Virus record (IMG/VR): IMGVR_UViG_2529292882_000019
Source of the DNA: a virus
Taxonomy: Duplodnaviria; Heunggongvirae; Uroviricota; Caudoviricetes
Strand: one strand, 5' to 3'
Length of the DNA stretch: 24,212 nucleotides
Below are positions 1,553 to 21,749 of this stretch, piece after piece. The translations under genes were made by a program, and so were the position numbers. A model generated the notes under the pieces. It was given only the letters and a program-made list of their open reading frames with translations. It ran no database searches and was not told the DNA's origin. How positions within the stretch are numbered: the stretch's first letter is position 1; every line of letters begins with the position of its first letter.

Positions 1553-1741
1553 TCACGAGGACAGAAGTTTCTCGCAATTAAAATTTATCAGTTTTACTTT
1601 CTGCTCTCTGGAAACGCCTGCTTCTTTTTTCCCTGAGAGCATTTTTTCGCATTCTGATTTCGTTAATTTAGATTTTGAATATCTTATCCAGTTAGTAGGA
1701 GTGCCACCTTCTTTTTCAATAGTGGCGGTAATTTTATACAT
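1553..1741 (-). CDS. Small hypothetical early protein (YdaC-like position), 62 aa from a GGAGG-supported ATG; frame is open up to 1813
   Basis: Minus-strand ORF between ralR-like and xis. GGAGG sits 6 nt before the ATG at 1741. The longer 86-aa form would overlap the upstream gene. Confidence 0.45.
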   Translation of the reverse strand: MYKITATIEKEGGTPTNWIRYSKSKLTKSECEKMLSGKKEAGVSREQKVKLINFNCEKLLSS

Positions 1742-11892: not shown

Positions 11893-12436
11893 TTACCAGG
11901 CACTGCGAATGGCGGCAGAAAATGCAACCCCTGGCGAATGGTGTTCTGATGATTACTATGGGGTAATTGCTGATGCCGGACTGAACGCAAATTACTACAT
12001 AGCATCATGCTCAGGACCAGATAATCGCGCCAATAAGCGATTCATAGCAGCAGCCAATCCGGCTACCGTGCTGGCACTGCTGGATGAACGGGAAGCCCAA
12101 AGCAAACGCATTGCAGAACTGGAGACTAATCTTGCTGCACTTGCGGCGGAGAATGCGGGGCTGAATAAATTTATCGTACAGAGTTGCTACGTGCTTGATG
12201 GCGAGCAGGATGAACTATCTGATGCGTATATCTGCGCAATAGACGGAAGGATGCCGCAAATCCCAGCCACCGACGCTTTCTTGTCGGATGTGCGGGCTGG
12301 GGCGTTTAACGACCTTTGCGCGGCGTTTGTCAGGCACGCAAAAGTTGCAGGACTGGATGATGCCGATACCGTAACGCTTAAGGAAGTGACAGAAGCATTG
12401 TTGCATTGTGCGGAACAGATTCGCGCGCCTGAATAA
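11879..12436 (+). CDS. Ea22/ead-like family protein, about 185 aa from a GTG with AGGAGG RBS
   Basis: AGGAGG precedes the GTG at 11879. Protein resembles lambdoid Ea22-like proteins by recall (NATPGEWC motif, coiled-coil centre). Confidence 0.55.
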
Positions 12437-12506
12437 TTAAATTTAGTGTTGTAAATAAAATTTAATCCTTAACCGGAGGGATTTCTGCACCCTCAAATAA
12501 TCAGGA

Positions 12507-12526
12507 GGCCGCCCAAAAGGGCGGCT
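12507..12526. terminator. Bidirectional hairpin terminator between the Ea22-like gene and the 4-TM gene
   Basis: Stem GCCGCCC/GGGCGGC with AAAA loop. Moderately U-rich downstream on both strands. Confidence 0.5.
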
Positions 12527-12536
12527 GTTCCGCTGT

Positions 12537-13091
12537 TCAATTATCTAAAATTGTGCTAAATCTTTTTATTACCATTAAGAACGTTATAACAGTGATAAAA
12601 AAGGATGTATAGGCTAAAAAGCTAACAATATATGCAGGTGCGCGAAAATACCATTTCATTAAATCCACTGCATTGTCAGGCAGGAAATATATTATCACTG
12701 AAAATATAACCAATACTATTGAAGTTAATATTGCATAAGCGACGTTGTGGCATAACTGCTCATATATGGTTTTGTTAGTGTTTAATGATATCAATTTGTC
12801 TCGGGATTTGTTTCCTTCAATTATGTCTGATATCTTAGTGATGGTTTTTTGTTTTTGTTCATAAATCATTATTACTGCACTCATTAATAGTGCTGTTGTA
12901 ATAGCCCCGAAGTTAACAAAGACGGAAGCAATTGCCGGTTTCATTATTCCGTATGTCCAGCACAGAACGAAAGAAAGAGATAACGGAACAATAAAATGTA
13001 CGATAATGTCGCTCATCAACATTGTTCCACGCTGATCTGACATTGTTTTGTAGTGTTTTATTATTACACCCAGCACATTTATTTTATTCAT
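12537..13091 (-). CDS. Small integral membrane protein with four predicted TM helices, 184 aa; putative effector of a two-gene cassette
   Basis: Four hydrophobic segments (IIVHFIVPLSLSFVLCWTYGI; AIASVFVNFGAITTALLMSAVIMIY; VAYAILTSIVLVIFSVIIYFL; APAYIVSFLAYTSFFITVITFLMVI). ATGA start/stop overlap with the upstream gene and AGGGGTGA RBS. Strongly AT-rich codon usage unlike the flanking prophage genes. Confidence 0.75.
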   Translation of the reverse strand: MNKINVLGVIIKHYKTMSDQRGTMLMSDIIVHFIVPLSLSFVLCWTYGIMKPAIASVFVNFGAITTALLMSAVIMIYEQKQKTITKISDIIEGNKSRDKLISLNTNKTIYEQLCHNVAYAILTSIVLVIFSVIIYFLPDNAVDLMKWYFRAPAYIVSFLAYTSFFITVITFLMVIKRFSTILDN

Positions 13092-14019
13092 ATAATCACC
13101 CCTTTGTTTCCGCTATGCAGTTCTAACAATATATCATTAGAAAGGTTTTTTATCGTGTCATGAAGTGCTGTTAGATCAGGTATGCCTGTTAATGGGTCGA
13201 TTTTTAGATCATTATCATCTAACTCTGCGGAAATTCCTTTTTTTAGTATGGTATCATAATTGAAAACGACAGTCCGACTGCCGAGTTGTAAGCTTACTTT
13301 TATTGCATCACATTTATCTTCAATAATCTCAATGATGTTTCCTATATTCTTGTTTCTTAAATCCCTGAAACTTCCGAACATGCCATCGTTTGCTTTTATT
13401 ATTAAGTCTGTCTTGATGTTTGTTTTGTTTTGACCAAAGGAATCAGCAATGTCTTTTGGTGCTTTATATCCTTGAGCCTTAATTTGTTTTAATTCGGAAT
13501 TGAGAATATATTGAGGGATTTTCTTATGATGTAATGGATTGATTCTTGCTTCGAGTTGAAATTTGTTTTTTAGATATTCAGTGATAGAATCAGAAAGGAC
13601 ACCTCGAGCAGAAATATTATCGCAAGAGTGGAATGCAATAATTCCTTCTTTAAGGGCGTCTGGTAGGTATATTAAAATATAACGTTCTTTGAGTGTTACA
13701 TCATAAGCAGTTGTCCTATAGTGGATTTTTTTGAGTTTTACATCTTTTATTTCACTGCTTTCTCCATATTTCCCAACTTTTATATAACCATATATAATTT
13801 TTTTGAGTTATCAAAGTGAAGTTTAGCGTGTTGTTCCAGAGATATTTTAGTTTTGGATACGCCAAACTCGATGGGGGTGTTTTTATATAGAGTAAAATAA
13901 TCAACAAAAAGTTCATATGCCGTTTTTTTATTACTTAAACCCAATTCATTAAGTTTTTTGCTGGCTCGACTGCCTTTATGGGTCAATACGCGGAATGAAT
14001 AGAAATTAACGCTGTGCAT
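13088..14019 (-). CDS. Soluble protein of about 310 aa encoded in two frames: 79-aa ORF (14019..13780) plus a 240-codon open frame (13807..13088) joined by a -1 shift at an A7 tract (13798..13804); possible pseudogene, homopolymer error or slippage
   Basis: AAGGA RBS 7 nt before the ATG at 14019. The downstream frame has no stop for 240 codons and no ATG/GTG/TTG before codon 143, which is unlikely by chance in AT-rich DNA. Heptamer A_AAA_AAA sits in the 25-nt window where both frames are open. Contains an Rx4H motif (RINPLH). Confidence 0.6.
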
Positions 14020-14043
14020 GAAAAGTCCTTTTGAACATATAGG

Positions 14044-14070
14044 AATATACTAGAACATAAATAGATGCAA
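14044..14070 (-). promoter_or_regulatory. Candidate sigma70 promoter for the two-gene cassette
   Basis: On the minus strand: TTGCAT, 15-nt spacer, TATATT, ending about 25 nt upstream of the cassette ATG. Spacing is suboptimal. Confidence 0.2.
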
Positions 14071-14421
14071 TGCATAAAGGAAAAGCTACCGCAGGGCGAA
14101 CTCACCCACCGATAGCTCTTAACTGGTTGTTTGTAAAAGATAATACATAAATTGGGGCTGTGTAAAGAGGTAAGCATCGTCAGGGCAAGGGAGATGTGTT
14201 AGGCGATATTGGTAAAATTTTCGTTGAGGATAAAAACGGTTTGCGGGAAAAGGAGAGTTAAGTAGAATTGCTGCGGGTGCTTGAGGCTATCTGCCTCGGG
14301 CATGAACACCAACGGCAGATAGATAAAAGCCCCACCCGACTATAAATCGAAGTGAGGCCCCTATATGCTCGTCACATATAGATTGCCTCTTACTGACCGA
14401 AAGGTCAAGGAGAAGCAGGCT

Positions 14422-14577
14422 ATGAAGCAGCAAAAGGCGATGTTAATCGCCCTGATCGTCATCTGTTTAACCGTCATAGTGACGGCACTGGTAACGAGGA
14501 AAGACCTCTGCGAGGTACGAATCCGAACCGGCCAGACGGAGGTCGCTGTCTTCACAGCTTACGAACCTGAGGAGTAA
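14422..14577 (+). CDS. hokD: Hok/Gef-family type I toxin, 51 aa (HokD/RelF-like)
   Basis: MKQQKAMLIALIVICLTVIVTALVTRKDLCEVRIRTGQTEVAVFTAYEPEE: single TM helix plus conserved C-terminal periplasmic region of Hok toxins. Followed by a strong terminator. Confidence 0.8.
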   Translation: MKQQKAMLIALIVICLTVIVTALVTRKDLCEVRIRTGQTEVAVFTAYEPEE

Positions 14578-14646
14578 GAGACCTGGCGGGGGAGAAATCT
14601 CCCGCCACCTCTGATGTGTCAGGCATCCTCAATGCACCCACACTTA

Positions 14647-14675
14647 ACCCGCTTCGGCGGGTTTTTGTTTTTATT
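14647..14675 (+). terminator. Rho-independent terminator downstream of hok
   Basis: Stem ACCCGC/GCGGGT with TTCG loop, followed by TTTTTGTTTTTATTTT. Confidence 0.8.
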
Positions 14676-14797
14676 TTCAACGCGTTTGAAGTTTTGGATA
14701 GTGCCGGAATAGAATCAAAAATACTTAAGTAGCGTGCAGGGAGAAGAGGGATGGACCCCGAACAGGGGAGTGCTATTTATCTGGAAGGATTCTGTTG

Positions 14798-14971
14798 ATG
14801 AAAATCGAAGAATTACGTGAAATTTTTAGTGAAGATGGCCTCTATGCTGTGCGCGTTGAGAATGGAGAAGTTATCTACACAACGTTAATTCCTGATGATC
14901 ATGTGATTTTATCTATCGAGGCATTCATTGAATACCTGGAAAGGCTCGGTTTCAAGGTGGTTCGGGAATGA
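14798..14971 (+). CDS. Small hypothetical protein, 57 aa (hand-translated; below ORF-track cutoff)
   Basis: MKIEELREIFSEDGLYAVRVENGEVIYTTLIPDDHVILSIEAFIEYLERLGFKVVRE. GGAAGGA about 10 nt upstream of the ATG. Confidence 0.4.
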   Translation: MKIEELREIFSEDGLYAVRVENGEVIYTTLIPDDHVILSIEAFIEYLERLGFKVVRE

Positions 14972-16817: not shown

Positions 16818-16893
<76 letters not shown>

Positions 16894-16896
16894 TAT

Positions 16897-16971
<75 letters not shown>

Positions 16972-20510: not shown

Positions 20511-21749
20511 ACGGTAAATCAGGCTTCTGGCGCATTACAAAAAAACCAGAACGGCGCGGATATTCCTGATAAGGGTCGCTTCCTGAGTAACATAAATGTT
20601 TACAGCAAAGGCGAGGTGGATAAGAAAAAAGGAATGCGGCAGTACGCATTTAATGCGCCGTCTAATGCAGTTGGTGGAAAGTGGTATCCAGTTATTTTCC
20701 GGCGTTCCACAGGCAGCACTGGCGAGCTGGCTTCCAGAGTGATTATAACGACCACATCTGCCGGTGGTAATTACGAAATGAATAACTGCGAATTCAATGG
20801 AATGGTAATGCCTGGTGGCTGGACTGATCGTGGCTCATATGCGGCAGGTTATTTTTCGACGTATCAGACTAATGAGCGCGCAATCCATTCCATTGTAACA
20901 AGCCTTAAAGAAGATGATGTATGCAGCGTTTTTTACGTTGAAGGCAGGGCTTTTCCTGTGCGGGTTTCTGCTGAAGAAGGGCTAACGGTTATTGTTCCAA
21001 CTCAGGATTATACCGTCGGTCAAACAACATATAAGTGGGGAGCAACTAATCCCGCGACAGAAAGCACGAACGCACAAGCTATTCTGGATTTTAACAATGG
21101 GCGAGGGTTTTATTGTTCTCACTCAATATTCGGTATTAATGCCATTTTTAGCGGAAATCTGGGGATTGGAACGGCTAATGCCCTGGGTGGCAATTCAATA
21201 GTTTTAGGAGATAACGATACCGGGTTTAAACAAAATGGTGATGGGGTGCTGGATGCTTATGCTAATGGTGTGCATGTATTCCGCTTTAGAAATGGTTCAG
21301 CAATATCATTAAAGGGTATTCAGGCTGGGGAAAGTAAGTTATTCACACTTTCAAGTGCAAATACCGCTGCCCGTAATGCATCATTTAACTTGTGGGGAAA
21401 TTCGTCAAGACCAACTGTTGCAGAGCTTGGTGATGATTCAGGCTGGCATTTCTATAGTCAGCGAAATACAGATAACTCGGTGACATTTGCTGTAAACGGT
21501 CAGATACAACCAAGCAACTGGGGTAACATTGATTCCCGATATGTGAAAGATGTTCGGCTTGGTTCACAGCAATATTATGGTGTGAACAACTGGCAAACAT
21601 GGAACTTCCAGTGCCCTTCAGGTCATGTATTGTCTGGTATAAATGTTCAGGATACAGGGTCAAATTCTGCCGATAATATAGCTGGCGTTTATTACAGACC
21701 AGTTCAAAAGTATATAAATGGCACCTGGTATAATGTAGCGAGCGTTTAA
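20502..21749 (+). CDS. Tail-fibre variable C-terminal module (S'v-like); no own start codon expected
   Basis: Frame opens immediately inside the gix site (track start is TTG). Gly/Asn/Ser/Thr-rich sequence typical of receptor-binding tips. Followed by a tail-fibre assembly gene. Confidence 0.7.

What the first reader, a model, noticed from the sequence alone, without database searches (positions are those of the whole stretch)
14340..14680. Hok-family type I toxin gene without an adjacent relBE-like pair
A 51-aa Hok/Gef-type membrane toxin with its own strong terminator sits between the AT-rich cassette and the nin-like genes. Hok loci are normally controlled by an antisense Sok RNA and a leader with fold-back elements, so a small antisense RNA is expected in the roughly 150 bp upstream. 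The track's N-terminal extension (14365) is probably not the real start.
Basis: partly seen in the sequence, partly recalled or inferred. Interest (0 to 1): 0.4.

Follow-up and report, generated by a model that had tools for sequence, protein, structure and literature searches.

The report
Complete hok/mok/sok toxin-antitoxin locus in prophage
This is an ordinary, apparently intact copy of the well-known hok/sok killer-gene module, a small membrane toxin held in check by an antisense RNA, carried by a Rac-like lambdoid prophage of E. coli; it is the full-length form of the truncated hokD (relF) gene of E. coli K-12.

Summary
A 51-aa Hok/Gef toxin is encoded at 14422-14577. It is identical to K-12 HokD/RelF, has its own terminator, and lies between an AT-rich cassette and nin/Q-like genes of a Rac-like prophage.

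Every canonical part of a hok/sok locus is present:
- The hok mRNA runs from 14275 to about 14670 (396 nt; R1's is 398 nt).
- The 5' tac element pairs with the 3' fbi element.
- The ucb box sequesters the mok Shine-Dalgarno.
- An in-silico 3' truncation switches the fold to tac/ucb and mok-SD/dcb, as in plasmid R1.
- The mok ORF starts at 14365.
- A 55-nt antisense Sok (14373 to 14319, minus strand) sits exactly where sokW, sokC and sokB are annotated.

The Rfam sok model scores 106 bits (threshold 59). The fold is supported by covariation across 77 loci.

The 14365 ATG is not an annotation artefact. It is the mok start, and translation from it is needed for hok translation in R1.

Lacking relBE is the normal state. 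K-12 is the exception, because there relBE replaced the leader. Most E. coli genomes carry such loci, and a prophage homologue (hokW-sokW) has been characterised experimentally.

Verdict: already known, low interest. Expression of Sok and the biological role were not testable here.

The parts
14240..14268 (+). Inferred hok promoter: -35 TTTGCG (14240-14245), 17-nt spacer, -10 TAGAAT (14263-14268)
   Evidence: The -10 aligns with TATAAT of K-12 hokC and TAGGAT of hokB, 6-7 nt before the conserved GGGTGC 5' end. It is below the threshold of the consensus scan. Inferred by homology only.
14275..14670 (+). Full-length hok (mok-hok) mRNA, about 396 nt
   Evidence: The 5' end is the first base of the Rfam sok model hit and aligns with the R1/R100 +1 to within 1 nt. 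The 3' end follows the terminator. MFE is -168.6 kcal/mol, z = -8.9 against shuffles.
14275..14286 (+). tac (translational activator) element at the 5' end, GGGUGCUUGAGG
   Evidence: It pairs with 14627-14639 in the full-length MFE and with 14327-14333 after in-silico 3' truncation. The helix is 90% paired in 77 loci, with compensatory U-A to C-G (20 sequences) and G-C to A-U (5 sequences) changes.
14287..14322 (+). Local leader hairpin (14287-14295 pairs with 14314-14322)
   Evidence: Present in the MFE of both the full-length and truncated forms. 99% of cells are paired, and 3 pairs show two-sided changes (helix 2).
14327..14335 (+). ucb (upstream complementary box / anti-SD of mok), AAGCCCCAC
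   Evidence: It pairs with the mok SD region 14352-14358 in the full-length fold and with tac in the truncated fold. The GCCCC core is invariant in 77 loci.
14354..14357 (+). mok Shine-Dalgarno, GAGG
   Evidence: Lies 7 nt upstream of ATG 14365. Sequestered by ucb in the full-length fold, and freed or paired to dcb in the truncated fold.
14365..14577 (+). mok reading frame (70 codons, here in frame with hok)
   Evidence: The start aligns with the annotated mokW (933W) and mokC (K-12) starts. The ORF passes the hok ATG in 74 of 74 loci, whatever the relative frame. R1 mutagenesis shows that mok translation up to the hok start is required (PMC9841398).
14361..14381 (+). Sok-target hairpin around the mok start. 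The loop 14368-14374 (CUCGUCA) is complementary to the Sok 5' tail
   Evidence: The stem 14361-14367 / 14375-14381 is present in all folds. The loop is the most variable stretch of the transcript among loci with an invariant toxin. The stem shows two-sided changes at 6 of 7 pairs (helix 7).
14385..14389 (+). dcb (downstream complementary box), GCCUC
   Evidence: It pairs with the mok SD 14354-14358 in the fold truncated at 14620. Invariant among the 43 hokD/hokW-type loci examined. It abuts and overlaps by 1 nt (14385) the inferred sok -10, consistent with R1, where the sok-promoter mutation lies in dcb (PMC9841398).
14319..14373 (-). Predicted Sok antisense RNA, 55 nt: 9-nt single-stranded 5' tail (GACGAGCAU), one long hairpin, U-rich 3' tail
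   Evidence: The 5' ends of annotated sokW, sokC and sokB all map to 14373, and their 3' ends map to 14319-14325. The fold is -21.4 kcal/mol, z = -4.7, with the same architecture as SokC, SokB, SokW and R1 Sok. Expression was not tested.
14380..14408 (-). Inferred sok promoter: -35 TTGACC (14408 to 14403), 17-nt spacer, -10 CAATCT (14385 to 14380), 6 nt before the start at 14373
   Evidence: Aligns with R1 TTGCGC/TATCCT and 933W TTGCCT/TAACCT. TAACCT is the hexamer mutated to silence sokW in PMC8621323 (primers YO-421/422). The layout is the same as K-12 sokC (TTGACC / CACTCT). The -10 is weak (2 of 6), and the consensus scan does not call it.
14407..14412 (+). hok Shine-Dalgarno, AAGGAG, inside a hairpin with CCUCUU (14387-14392)
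   Evidence: CAAGGAGAA is invariant or nearly invariant in 77 loci. The hairpin is helix 8 (81% paired).
14422..14577 (+). hok (hokD-type) toxin gene, 51 aa
   Evidence: Pfam HOK_GEF E=1.2e-23. Identical to K-12 HokD, WP_000813254.1. HokD is reported toxic on overexpression (bioRxiv 10.1101/2025.08.07.668861).
14585..14606 (+). 3' UTR G+C-rich hairpin (GGCGGGGGAG-AAAU-CUCCCGCC), candidate road-block for 3' trimming
   Evidence: Present in the MFE. Helices 10-11 show two-sided changes. The role is inferred from R1 (PMC1635323).
14627..14639 (+). fbi (fold-back inhibitory) element, CCUCAAUGCACCC
   Evidence: Pairs with tac in the MFE. Duplex energy is -21.5 kcal/mol, z = -4.0 against a shuffled 3' UTR. 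It co-varies with tac between the hokD/W/C, hokB and R1 subfamilies.
14646..14672 (+). Intrinsic terminator of the hok mRNA
   Evidence: 7-bp stem (5 G-C pairs), 4-nt loop, T run.

Best explanation
The region 14240-14672 is a complete hok/mok/sok type I toxin-antitoxin module of the hokD/hokW/hokC subfamily, carried as cargo by a Rac-like lambdoid prophage.

Proposed mechanism, with shown and inferred steps marked:
1. A weak promoter makes a stable mRNA of about 396 nt (14275 to about 14670). Inferred by homology.
2. In the full-length mRNA the 5' tac element (14275-14286) pairs with the 3' fbi element (14627-14639), and ucb (14329-14335) sequesters the mok Shine-Dalgarno. The mRNA is therefore neither translated nor bound by Sok. 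Shown here by thermodynamic prediction and covariation.
3. Slow 3' exonucleolytic trimming removes fbi. tac then re-pairs with ucb, and the mok SD is released or paired with dcb. Ribosomes translating mok from 14365 open the hairpin that hides the hok SD, so Hok (14422-14577) can be made. The structural switch is reproduced in silico. The trimming and the translational coupling are inferred from plasmid R1.
4. A short-lived antisense RNA of 55 nt, Sok (14373 to 14319, minus strand), is transcribed from TTGACC-17-CAATCT. Its single-stranded 5' tail binds the loop at the mok start. This blocks mok translation, and hence hok translation, and marks the duplex for RNase III. The position and fold are shown by homology. 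Expression is not shown.
5. When sok transcription stops, Sok decays first and Hok depolarises or permeabilises the inner membrane.

The likely trigger and role in a prophage is one of three: loss of the element (addiction), help with lysis after prophage induction (as shown for hokW-sokW of Sp5), or abortive infection. Which applies is inferred and was not tested.
For: - Pfam HOK_GEF E=1.2e-23. The protein is identical to K-12 HokD.
- Rfam RF01794 'sok' at 14275-14424, 106.3 bits against a gathering score of 59, covering the full model.
- Alignment with 933W hokW/sokW, K-12 hokC/sokC and hokB/sokB, and R100 hok: three independently annotated Sok RNAs put their 5' end at window 14373, and the mokW and mokC starts fall at 14365.
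- The full-length mRNA has MFE -168.6 kcal/mol, z = -8.9, with tac/fbi and ucb/SD-mok pairings. Truncation to 14625 or shorter gives tac/ucb, and truncation at 14620 gives SD-mok/dcb. This is the R1 scheme described in PMC9841398 and PMC1635323.
- On 77 loci, 81.9% of cells are paired against 43-52% for slid controls. There are 35 pairs with two-sided changes, and 0 of 500 shuffles reach the observed values.
- tac and fbi co-vary between subfamilies.
- Sok folds like SokC, SokB, SokW and R1 Sok.
- The mok ORF reaches the hok ATG in 74 of 74 loci.
- The homologous hokW-sokW is experimentally a type I TA (PMC8621323).
- No IS element, frameshift or truncation is visible in the locus.
Against: - No transcript data are available for this locus.
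- Neither promoter reaches the consensus-scan threshold. The sok -10 (CAATCT) matches only 2 of 6 consensus positions.
- Chromosomal hokA, hokB and hokC loci were reported not to mediate post-segregational killing and not to be activated by rifampicin (cited in bioRxiv 10.1101/2025.08.07.668861). An intact anatomy therefore does not guarantee killing activity.
- At an intermediate truncation (3' end at 14632) the prediction pairs tac with another 3' segment instead of ucb. The exact processing end therefore matters, and it is unknown.
- The structure tested on the alignment was derived from one of its own sequences. This inflates the percentage paired relative to the slid controls.
Confidence: 0.86

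Rival explanations
1. An anatomically intact but functionally silent relic. The locus is transcribed little or not at all, or Hok is never released, as proposed for the chromosomal hok loci of laboratory E. coli. It would hitch-hike in the prophage without a role.
For: - Chromosomal hokA, hokB and hokC loci did not mediate post-segregational killing (literature cited).
- Both promoters are weak by consensus.
- The neighbouring minus-strand gene is degraded in this window relative to strain JNU, so this prophage copy is decaying in places.
Against: - All regulatory elements are intact, and the paired ones co-vary.
- The toxin coding sequence is nearly invariant across dozens of prophages, with mean column entropy 0.05 bits, while the flanks vary.
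- The mok frame is restored by paired indels.
- These are signs of ongoing selection. The homologue hokW-sokW is active.
Confidence: 0.1
2. The 70-aa ORF from 14365 is the single real gene product, an N-terminally extended Hok, and there is no separate mok/hok coupling or antisense control.
For: - In this subfamily mok is in frame with hok, so translation from 14365 would give a Mok-Hok fusion.
- Some records annotate the 213-nt ORF as 'gef'.
Against: - hok has its own strong, nearly invariant Shine-Dalgarno (AAGGAG, 14407-14412) and ATG.
- In the R1-type and other subfamilies mok is out of frame or stops just after the hok ATG. The N-terminal peptide is highly variable and is even frame-shifted between classes. 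The peptide is therefore not what is conserved.
- PGAP annotates the 51-aa product.
Confidence: 0.03
3. The small RNA is encoded on the plus strand, as the strand of the Rfam 'sok' hit would suggest taken literally, and is not antisense to the leader.
For: The RF01794 hit is reported on the + strand.
Against: - The model spans 157 positions, from the hok mRNA 5' end to the hok AUG. It therefore models the leader, not a 55-70 nt RNA (alignment).
- Annotated sokW, sokC and sokB are all on the strand opposite to hok.
- The minus strand gives the tail-hairpin-U-tail architecture.
Confidence: 0.01

Closest known systems
hokW-mokW-sokW of Stx2 phage 933W / Sakai prophage Sp5 (Plunkett annotation AF125520; Takada et al. 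2021, PMC8621323)
   Same: - 85.7% DNA identity over 93% of the locus.
- The toxin is 92% identical.
- mok is in frame in both. The tac, ucb, dcb and fbi sequences are the same or nearly so, and the Sok 5' end is at the same position.
- Both are prophage-borne.
   Different: - The Sok hairpin here is about 22 nt shorter, giving a 147-nt leader against 168-170 nt.
- The recognition loop differs: CUCGUC here against CUGAAC.
- A -1/+1 indel pair changes 9 mok codons and the sok promoter hexamers: TTGACC/CAATCT here against TTGCCT/TAACCT.
- The position in the prophage differs: between the replication genes and the nin/Q genes here, near the right end in 933W.
hokD (relF) of the relBE-hokD operon, Qin prophage, E. 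coli K-12
   Same: - Identical Hok protein.
- 97.1% DNA identity from 14408 to beyond the terminator, including fbi.
- The same place in a lambdoid prophage map, upstream of the nin/Q genes.
   Different: K-12 lacks everything upstream of 14408: the hok promoter, tac, ucb, the mok start, Sok and the sok promoter. relBE replaced these. The window holds the complete form.
hokC (gef)/mokC/sokC of the E. coli chromosome
   Same: - Similar leader length (150 against 147 nt).
- mok in frame.
- The same sok -35 (TTGACC) and the same 1-nt-shorter -10 region.
- Sok of 59 nt against 55 nt, with the same fold.
- The toxin is 82% identical.
   Different: - hokC is chromosomal, not prophage-borne.
- The K-12 copy has IS186 immediately downstream.
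- The recognition loop and the 3' UTR differ.
hok/mok/sok (parB) of plasmid R1/R100
   Same: - The same set of elements in the same order, and an mRNA of nearly the same length (398 against about 396 nt).
- The same predicted full-length and truncated folds.
- Sok architecture: 5' tail plus hairpin.
   Different: - The toxin is only 41% identical.
- mok is out of frame with hok in R1.
- The R1 leader is longer (174 nt).
- The tac/fbi sequences differ by compensating changes.
- R1 is plasmid-borne, with a proven role in post-segregational killing.

Membership tests
hok/mok/sok type I toxin-antitoxin family | Small (about 50 aa) Hok/Gef membrane toxin with the conserved TRK..LCE..R.G..EVA core | tested here: met
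   Pfam PF01848, 82.9 bits against a cut-off of 22. All 12 invariant columns of the 5-protein alignment are present.
hok/mok/sok type I toxin-antitoxin family | Overlapping upstream mok reading frame with its own SD, open at least to the hok start codon | tested here: met
   ATG at 14365 with GAGG 7 nt upstream. Open through 14422. Aligns with the mokW and mokC starts.
hok/mok/sok type I toxin-antitoxin family | cis-antisense Sok RNA gene opposite the mok translation initiation region: 5' single-stranded tail, hairpin, U tail, own promoter | tested here: inconclusive
   The position, the fold and the homology to three annotated Sok RNAs are met. The promoter is identified only by alignment, and its -10 is weak. 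No expression data.
hok/mok/sok type I toxin-antitoxin family | Long-range 5'-3' pairing (tac/fbi) closing the full-length mRNA | tested here: met
   12 bp in the MFE. Duplex z = -4.0. 90% paired, with compensatory changes, in 77 loci.
hok/mok/sok type I toxin-antitoxin family | Alternative pairings ucb/SD-mok (closed form) and tac/ucb plus SD-mok/dcb (open form) after 3' truncation | tested here: met
   Reproduced by folding full-length and truncated RNAs. This is a thermodynamic prediction only.
hok/mok/sok type I toxin-antitoxin family | 3' processing of the mRNA, RNase III cleavage of the Sok-mRNA duplex, and differential RNA stability | not testable with these tools
   Needs Northern or RNA-seq time courses after rifampicin.
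hok/mok/sok type I toxin-antitoxin family | Toxicity of Hok and its neutralisation by Sok | not testable with these tools
   HokD of identical sequence is reported toxic, and hokW-sokW was shown to be a TA pair. This locus itself is untested.
relBE-hokD (relBEF) operon of Qin | relB and relE immediately upstream, with hokD co-transcribed and lacking its own leader | tested here: not met
   No RelB or RelE by tblastn. Only 2 of 80 IMG/VR loci with the identical toxin have relE upstream. A full hok leader is present instead.
IsrK sRNA (Rfam RF01394) | Score at or above the family gathering threshold | tested here: not met
   25.4 bits against 50. The region is the hok 3' UTR plus terminator.

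The most novel reading that the evidence does not exclude
The five nucleotides after the mok ATG (14368-14372) form the loop contacted by the Sok 5' tail. They may be a fast-evolving specificity determinant. Prophage hok/sok modules with an identical toxin would then diversify this loop so that co-resident prophages do not neutralise each other's toxin (an 'anti-addiction' escape). The window would carry one such specificity type (CUCGUC), combined with a shortened Sok hairpin.
Probability: 0.3. Interest if true: 0.35.

Novelty: already known. Interest (0 to 1): 0.1.

Why it matters
It matters little as a discovery, because hok/sok loci in lambdoid prophages are annotated and a close homologue has been studied.

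It is useful for annotation:
- It shows where the unannotated Sok RNA, the mok frame and the regulatory boxes lie in the hokD-type prophage locus.
- It shows that the K-12 'hokD' is a derived truncation of this complete form.
- It shows that the Rfam 'sok' model actually matches the hok leader strand.

For anyone studying this prophage, the module is a candidate for addiction, induction-coupled lysis or phage exclusion. The same prophage also carries a RalA match (the RalR/RalA type I antitoxin RNA), so it probably has a second type I TA system.

Tried and rejected
- **Consensus promoter scan, 14100-14800.** It calls neither the hok nor the sok promoter. Both were placed by alignment only. I considered TATATG (14381 to 14376) as an alternative sok -10. 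I rejected it because its spacing to TTGACC would be 21-22 nt, and because it is not the hexamer homologous to the one mutated in sokW.
- **PADLOC scan.** No hits for Hok, the downstream 57-aa ORF or the upstream cassette proteins.
- **Pfam scan.** Nothing for the two upstream minus-strand ORFs or for the 58-aa ORF at 14795-14971.
- **Sub-threshold isrK and rsmX hits over the hok 3' UTR.** Treated as chance or generic two-hairpin similarity.
- **relBE.** Searched by tblastn and absent.
- **Second hok locus in the window.** A search with the tac motif found only a 2-mismatch chance match at 21244.
- **Strict orthogonality of recognition loops.** Checked and not upheld. Co-resident copies differ, but the hokW loop equals the K-12 hokC loop.
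- **** failed on a frame error (the hok start is 14422, not 14423).

Full report
**1. What is there**

The ORF list shows a 70-codon frame at 14365-14577 on the + strand. An internal ATG at 14422 opens a 51-aa peptide. That peptide matches Pfam HOK_GEF (PF01848) at E=1.2e-23. It is the same RefSeq protein (WP_000813254.1) as HokD/RelF of E. coli K-12.

A 7-bp G+C-rich hairpin followed by a T run at 14646-14672 is the only terminator-like site in 14100-14800.

The 1.5 kb upstream (12400-14050) is 31-37% GC, against about 50% around it. It holds minus-strand ORFs without family matches. Downstream lie DUF1367, YbcO and a DUF1133/Q-like gene.

The rest of the window reads as a Rac-like lambdoid prophage. 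It has an integrase, a YqaJ exonuclease, RecT, RecE, an HTH repressor, YdaT, DnaT-like and P-like replication proteins, DUF1627 and Ead/Ea22. The nearest complete genome (E. coli JNU, 99.8% over the locus) has the same order.

**2. The leader and the antisense gene**

Rfam's 'sok' model (RF01794) matches 14275-14424 end to end, at 106 bits against a gathering score of 59. The hit is on the hok strand and spans the mRNA 5' end to the hok AUG. The model therefore represents the hok leader rather than the small RNA itself.

I aligned the locus with four reference loci:
- 933W hokW/mokW/sokW, annotated in AF125520
- K-12 hokC/mokC/sokC
- K-12 hokB/mokB/sokB
- R100 hok

Projected onto the window, the 5' ends of sokW, sokC and sokB all fall on 14373 (minus strand), and their 3' ends fall on 14319-14325. 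The mokW and mokC starts fall on 14365, and the hok starts on 14422.

The predicted 55-nt RNA (14373 to 14319) folds into a 9-nt free 5' tail, one long hairpin and a U-rich tail (-21.4 kcal/mol, z = -4.7). This is the same architecture as SokC, SokB, SokW and R1 Sok.

Its promoter, by alignment, is TTGACC (14408 to 14403), a 17-nt spacer, and CAATCT (14385 to 14380). It is homologous to R1 TTGCGC/TATCCT and to 933W TTGCCT/TAACCT. TAACCT is the hexamer that Takada et al. mutated to silence sokW (primers, construction). The -10 is weak, and the consensus scan does not call it. This is the softest point of the identification.

**3. The mRNA switch**

The 396-nt RNA from 14275 to 14670 has an MFE of -168.6 kcal/mol, z = -8.9. 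In the full-length fold:
- nt 14275-14286 (GGGUGCUUGAGG) pair with 14627-14639 (CCUCAAUGCACCC)
- 14329-14335 pair with the mok SD region 14352-14358

When the 3' end is cut back in silico to 14625 or less, the fold changes. 14275-14282 pair instead with 14327-14333. With the end at 14620, the mok SD (14354-14358) pairs with 14385-14389.

These are the tac/fbi, ucb/SD-mok, tac/ucb and SD-mok/dcb interactions described for plasmid R1 (PMC9841398; PMC1635323). One caveat: at an intermediate end (14632) the prediction pairs tac with another 3' segment, so the true processing site matters.

**4. Comparative support**

Scans of IMG/VR and of one-genome-per-species contigs gave 157 loci. For each unique locus I asked whether the first 13 nt find a partner in the 3' UTR. 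The partners co-vary by subfamily:

| Subfamily | tac | fbi |
|---|---|---|
| hokD/W/C | GGGUGCUUGAGG | CCUCAAYGCACCC |
| hokB | GGGYGCCUGAGA | UCUCAUGGCRCCC |
| R1-like | GGCGCUUGAGGC | GCCUGAAGCGCC |

I then counted the window's untranslated-region helices on a 77-sequence alignment. The result:
- 81.9% of cells are paired, against 43-52% when partners are slid by 1-3 columns.
- 35 pairs show two-sided changes, and no shuffle out of 500 reaches the observed values.
- The tac/fbi helix is 90% paired, with U-A to C-G in 20 sequences and G-C to A-U in 5.

Because the structure was derived from a member of the alignment, the percentage paired is somewhat favoured. The compensatory changes are not subject to that bias.

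**5. mok**

In all 74 loci with an ATG at the mok position, the ORF runs past the hok ATG. Depending on subfamily it is in frame with hok, at +1, or at +2, in which case it stops just after the hok start.

The window's class differs from the 933W class by a 1-nt deletion and a 1-nt insertion 20 nt apart. Together these shift nine mok codons (LPLTDRKV against LASYVPKG) and then restore the frame. This fits selection for translation through the region rather than for the peptide, as established for R1.

So 14365 is a genuine start, that of mok, and Hok itself starts at 14422.

**6. relBE**

K-12-lineage genomes match the window only from 14408 onward. Upstream of that point K-12 has relB-relE. 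Among 80 viral-contig loci with the identical toxin:
- 7 have the window's 147-nt leader
- 70 have a 168-170-nt leader (933W-like, with about 22 extra nt in the Sok hairpin)
- 2 have relE upstream

In RefSeq complete E. coli genomes, 4934 of 5426 have a match, and 3404 have one covering at least 80% of the 521-nt query, leader included. The absence of relBE is thus the rule. The K-12 arrangement is a derived truncation that lost the promoter, tac, ucb, the mok start and sok, but kept fbi and the terminator.

**7. Function**

The following steps are inferred, not shown here:
- transcription from the two promoters
- 3' trimming of the mRNA
- RNase III cleavage of the duplex
- differential RNA stability
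- killing

The closest experimental system is hokW-sokW of Sp5. There HokW is toxic and sokW neutralises it, partly through RNase III and Hfq. sokW disappears on RecA-dependent induction, HokW then appears in the inner membrane about an hour before the endolysin, and deletion halves phage release.

A recent survey finds Hok genes enriched about four-fold in prophages, and confirms that HokD is toxic on overexpression. The same survey recalls that chromosomal hokA, hokB and hokC loci did not give post-segregational killing. This keeps a 'silent relic' reading alive at about 10%.

**8. Verdict**

This is a complete, canonical, already known kind of locus, and close copies are annotated in public records: 'hokD' in RefSeq, 'gef, phage maintenance protein' in PPompW prophages at 98.3% identity, and mokW/hokW/sokW in 933W.

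The contribution here is the exact map of Sok, mok and the regulatory boxes for the short-leader hokD-type variant.

The one mildly interesting by-product concerns the transcript positions 14368-14372, the loop contacted by the Sok 5' tail. Among loci with an essentially invariant toxin gene, these are the most variable positions: 1.25-1.82 bits there, against a mean of 0.05 bits per column in the hok CDS. Co-resident copies differ at this loop. This is compatible with diversification of antisense specificity, but it is unproven, and not strict, because the hokW loop equals the K-12 hokC loop.

Noticed in passing
window 1557-1735 (+): Rfam RalA (RF02694) matches at 222 bits (gathering score 170). 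RalA is the antitoxin RNA of the RalR/RalA type I toxin-antitoxin pair of the Rac prophage. The same prophage therefore probably carries a second type I TA module.
   Followed up: no
window 14368-14372 (loop of the hairpin 14361-14381): Among 43 hokD/hokW-type loci with an almost invariant hok CDS (mean 0.05 bits per column), these five bases are the most variable within the transcript (1.25-1.82 bits). They are complementary to nt 2-6 of the Sok 5' tail. The flanking stem varies too, with two-sided changes at 6 of 7 pairs in the 77-locus count. Copies within one genome differ here, but the 933W hokW loop equals the K-12 hokC loop. This is a possible antisense specificity determinant.
   Followed up: partly
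window 12537-14019 (-): An AT-rich (31-35% GC) two-gene cassette lies on the opposite strand. The 184-aa ORF (12537-13091) is intact. The second gene is a 310-aa ORF in E. coli JNU, but in the window it is broken into 97-aa and 79-aa ORFs, so it looks like a pseudogene. Neither has a Pfam or PADLOC match.
   Followed up: partly
window 14382-14405: Relative to the common 933W-like class, the window's class has a 1-nt deletion (after 14384) and a 1-nt insertion (T14405). Together they shift nine mok codons and then restore the frame. The same indels change the sok -10 (TAACCT to CAATCT) and -35 (TTGCCT to TTGACC).
   Followed up: partly
window 14560-14563: Tyr47 is encoded by TAC followed by G, the same sequence as in K-12 hokD. 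K-12 hokD mRNA is reported to be A-to-I edited at a low level (about 6%). By the reported position-46 recoding this would be Tyr to Cys at this codon, though the paper text retrieved names no nucleotide motif (PMC12214031). Editing of this locus was not examined.
   Followed up: no
window 14586-14667 (+): A sub-threshold Rfam hit to isrK, a Salmonella sRNA family (25.4 bits, gathering score 50, E=0.007). It lies over the hok 3' UTR hairpin, fbi and the terminator. It is probably a generic two-hairpin resemblance.
   Followed up: no
window 16818-16890 and 16897-16968 (+): Two tRNA genes lie just downstream of the Q-like antiterminator gene, as in many lambdoid and Stx-type prophages.
   Followed up: no
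window 14275-14424 / Rfam RF01794: The Rfam family named 'sok antitoxin' matches the hok-mRNA strand. It spans the whole leader from the mRNA 5' end to the hok AUG (157 model positions). A hit therefore marks the locus, not the strand or the extent of the Sok RNA.
   Followed up: yes
window 14795-14971 (+): A 58-aa ORF (57 aa from the ATG at 14798) lies just downstream of the hok terminator, with no family match. In strain JNU the corresponding stretch is annotated as a truncated pseudogene.
   Followed up: no
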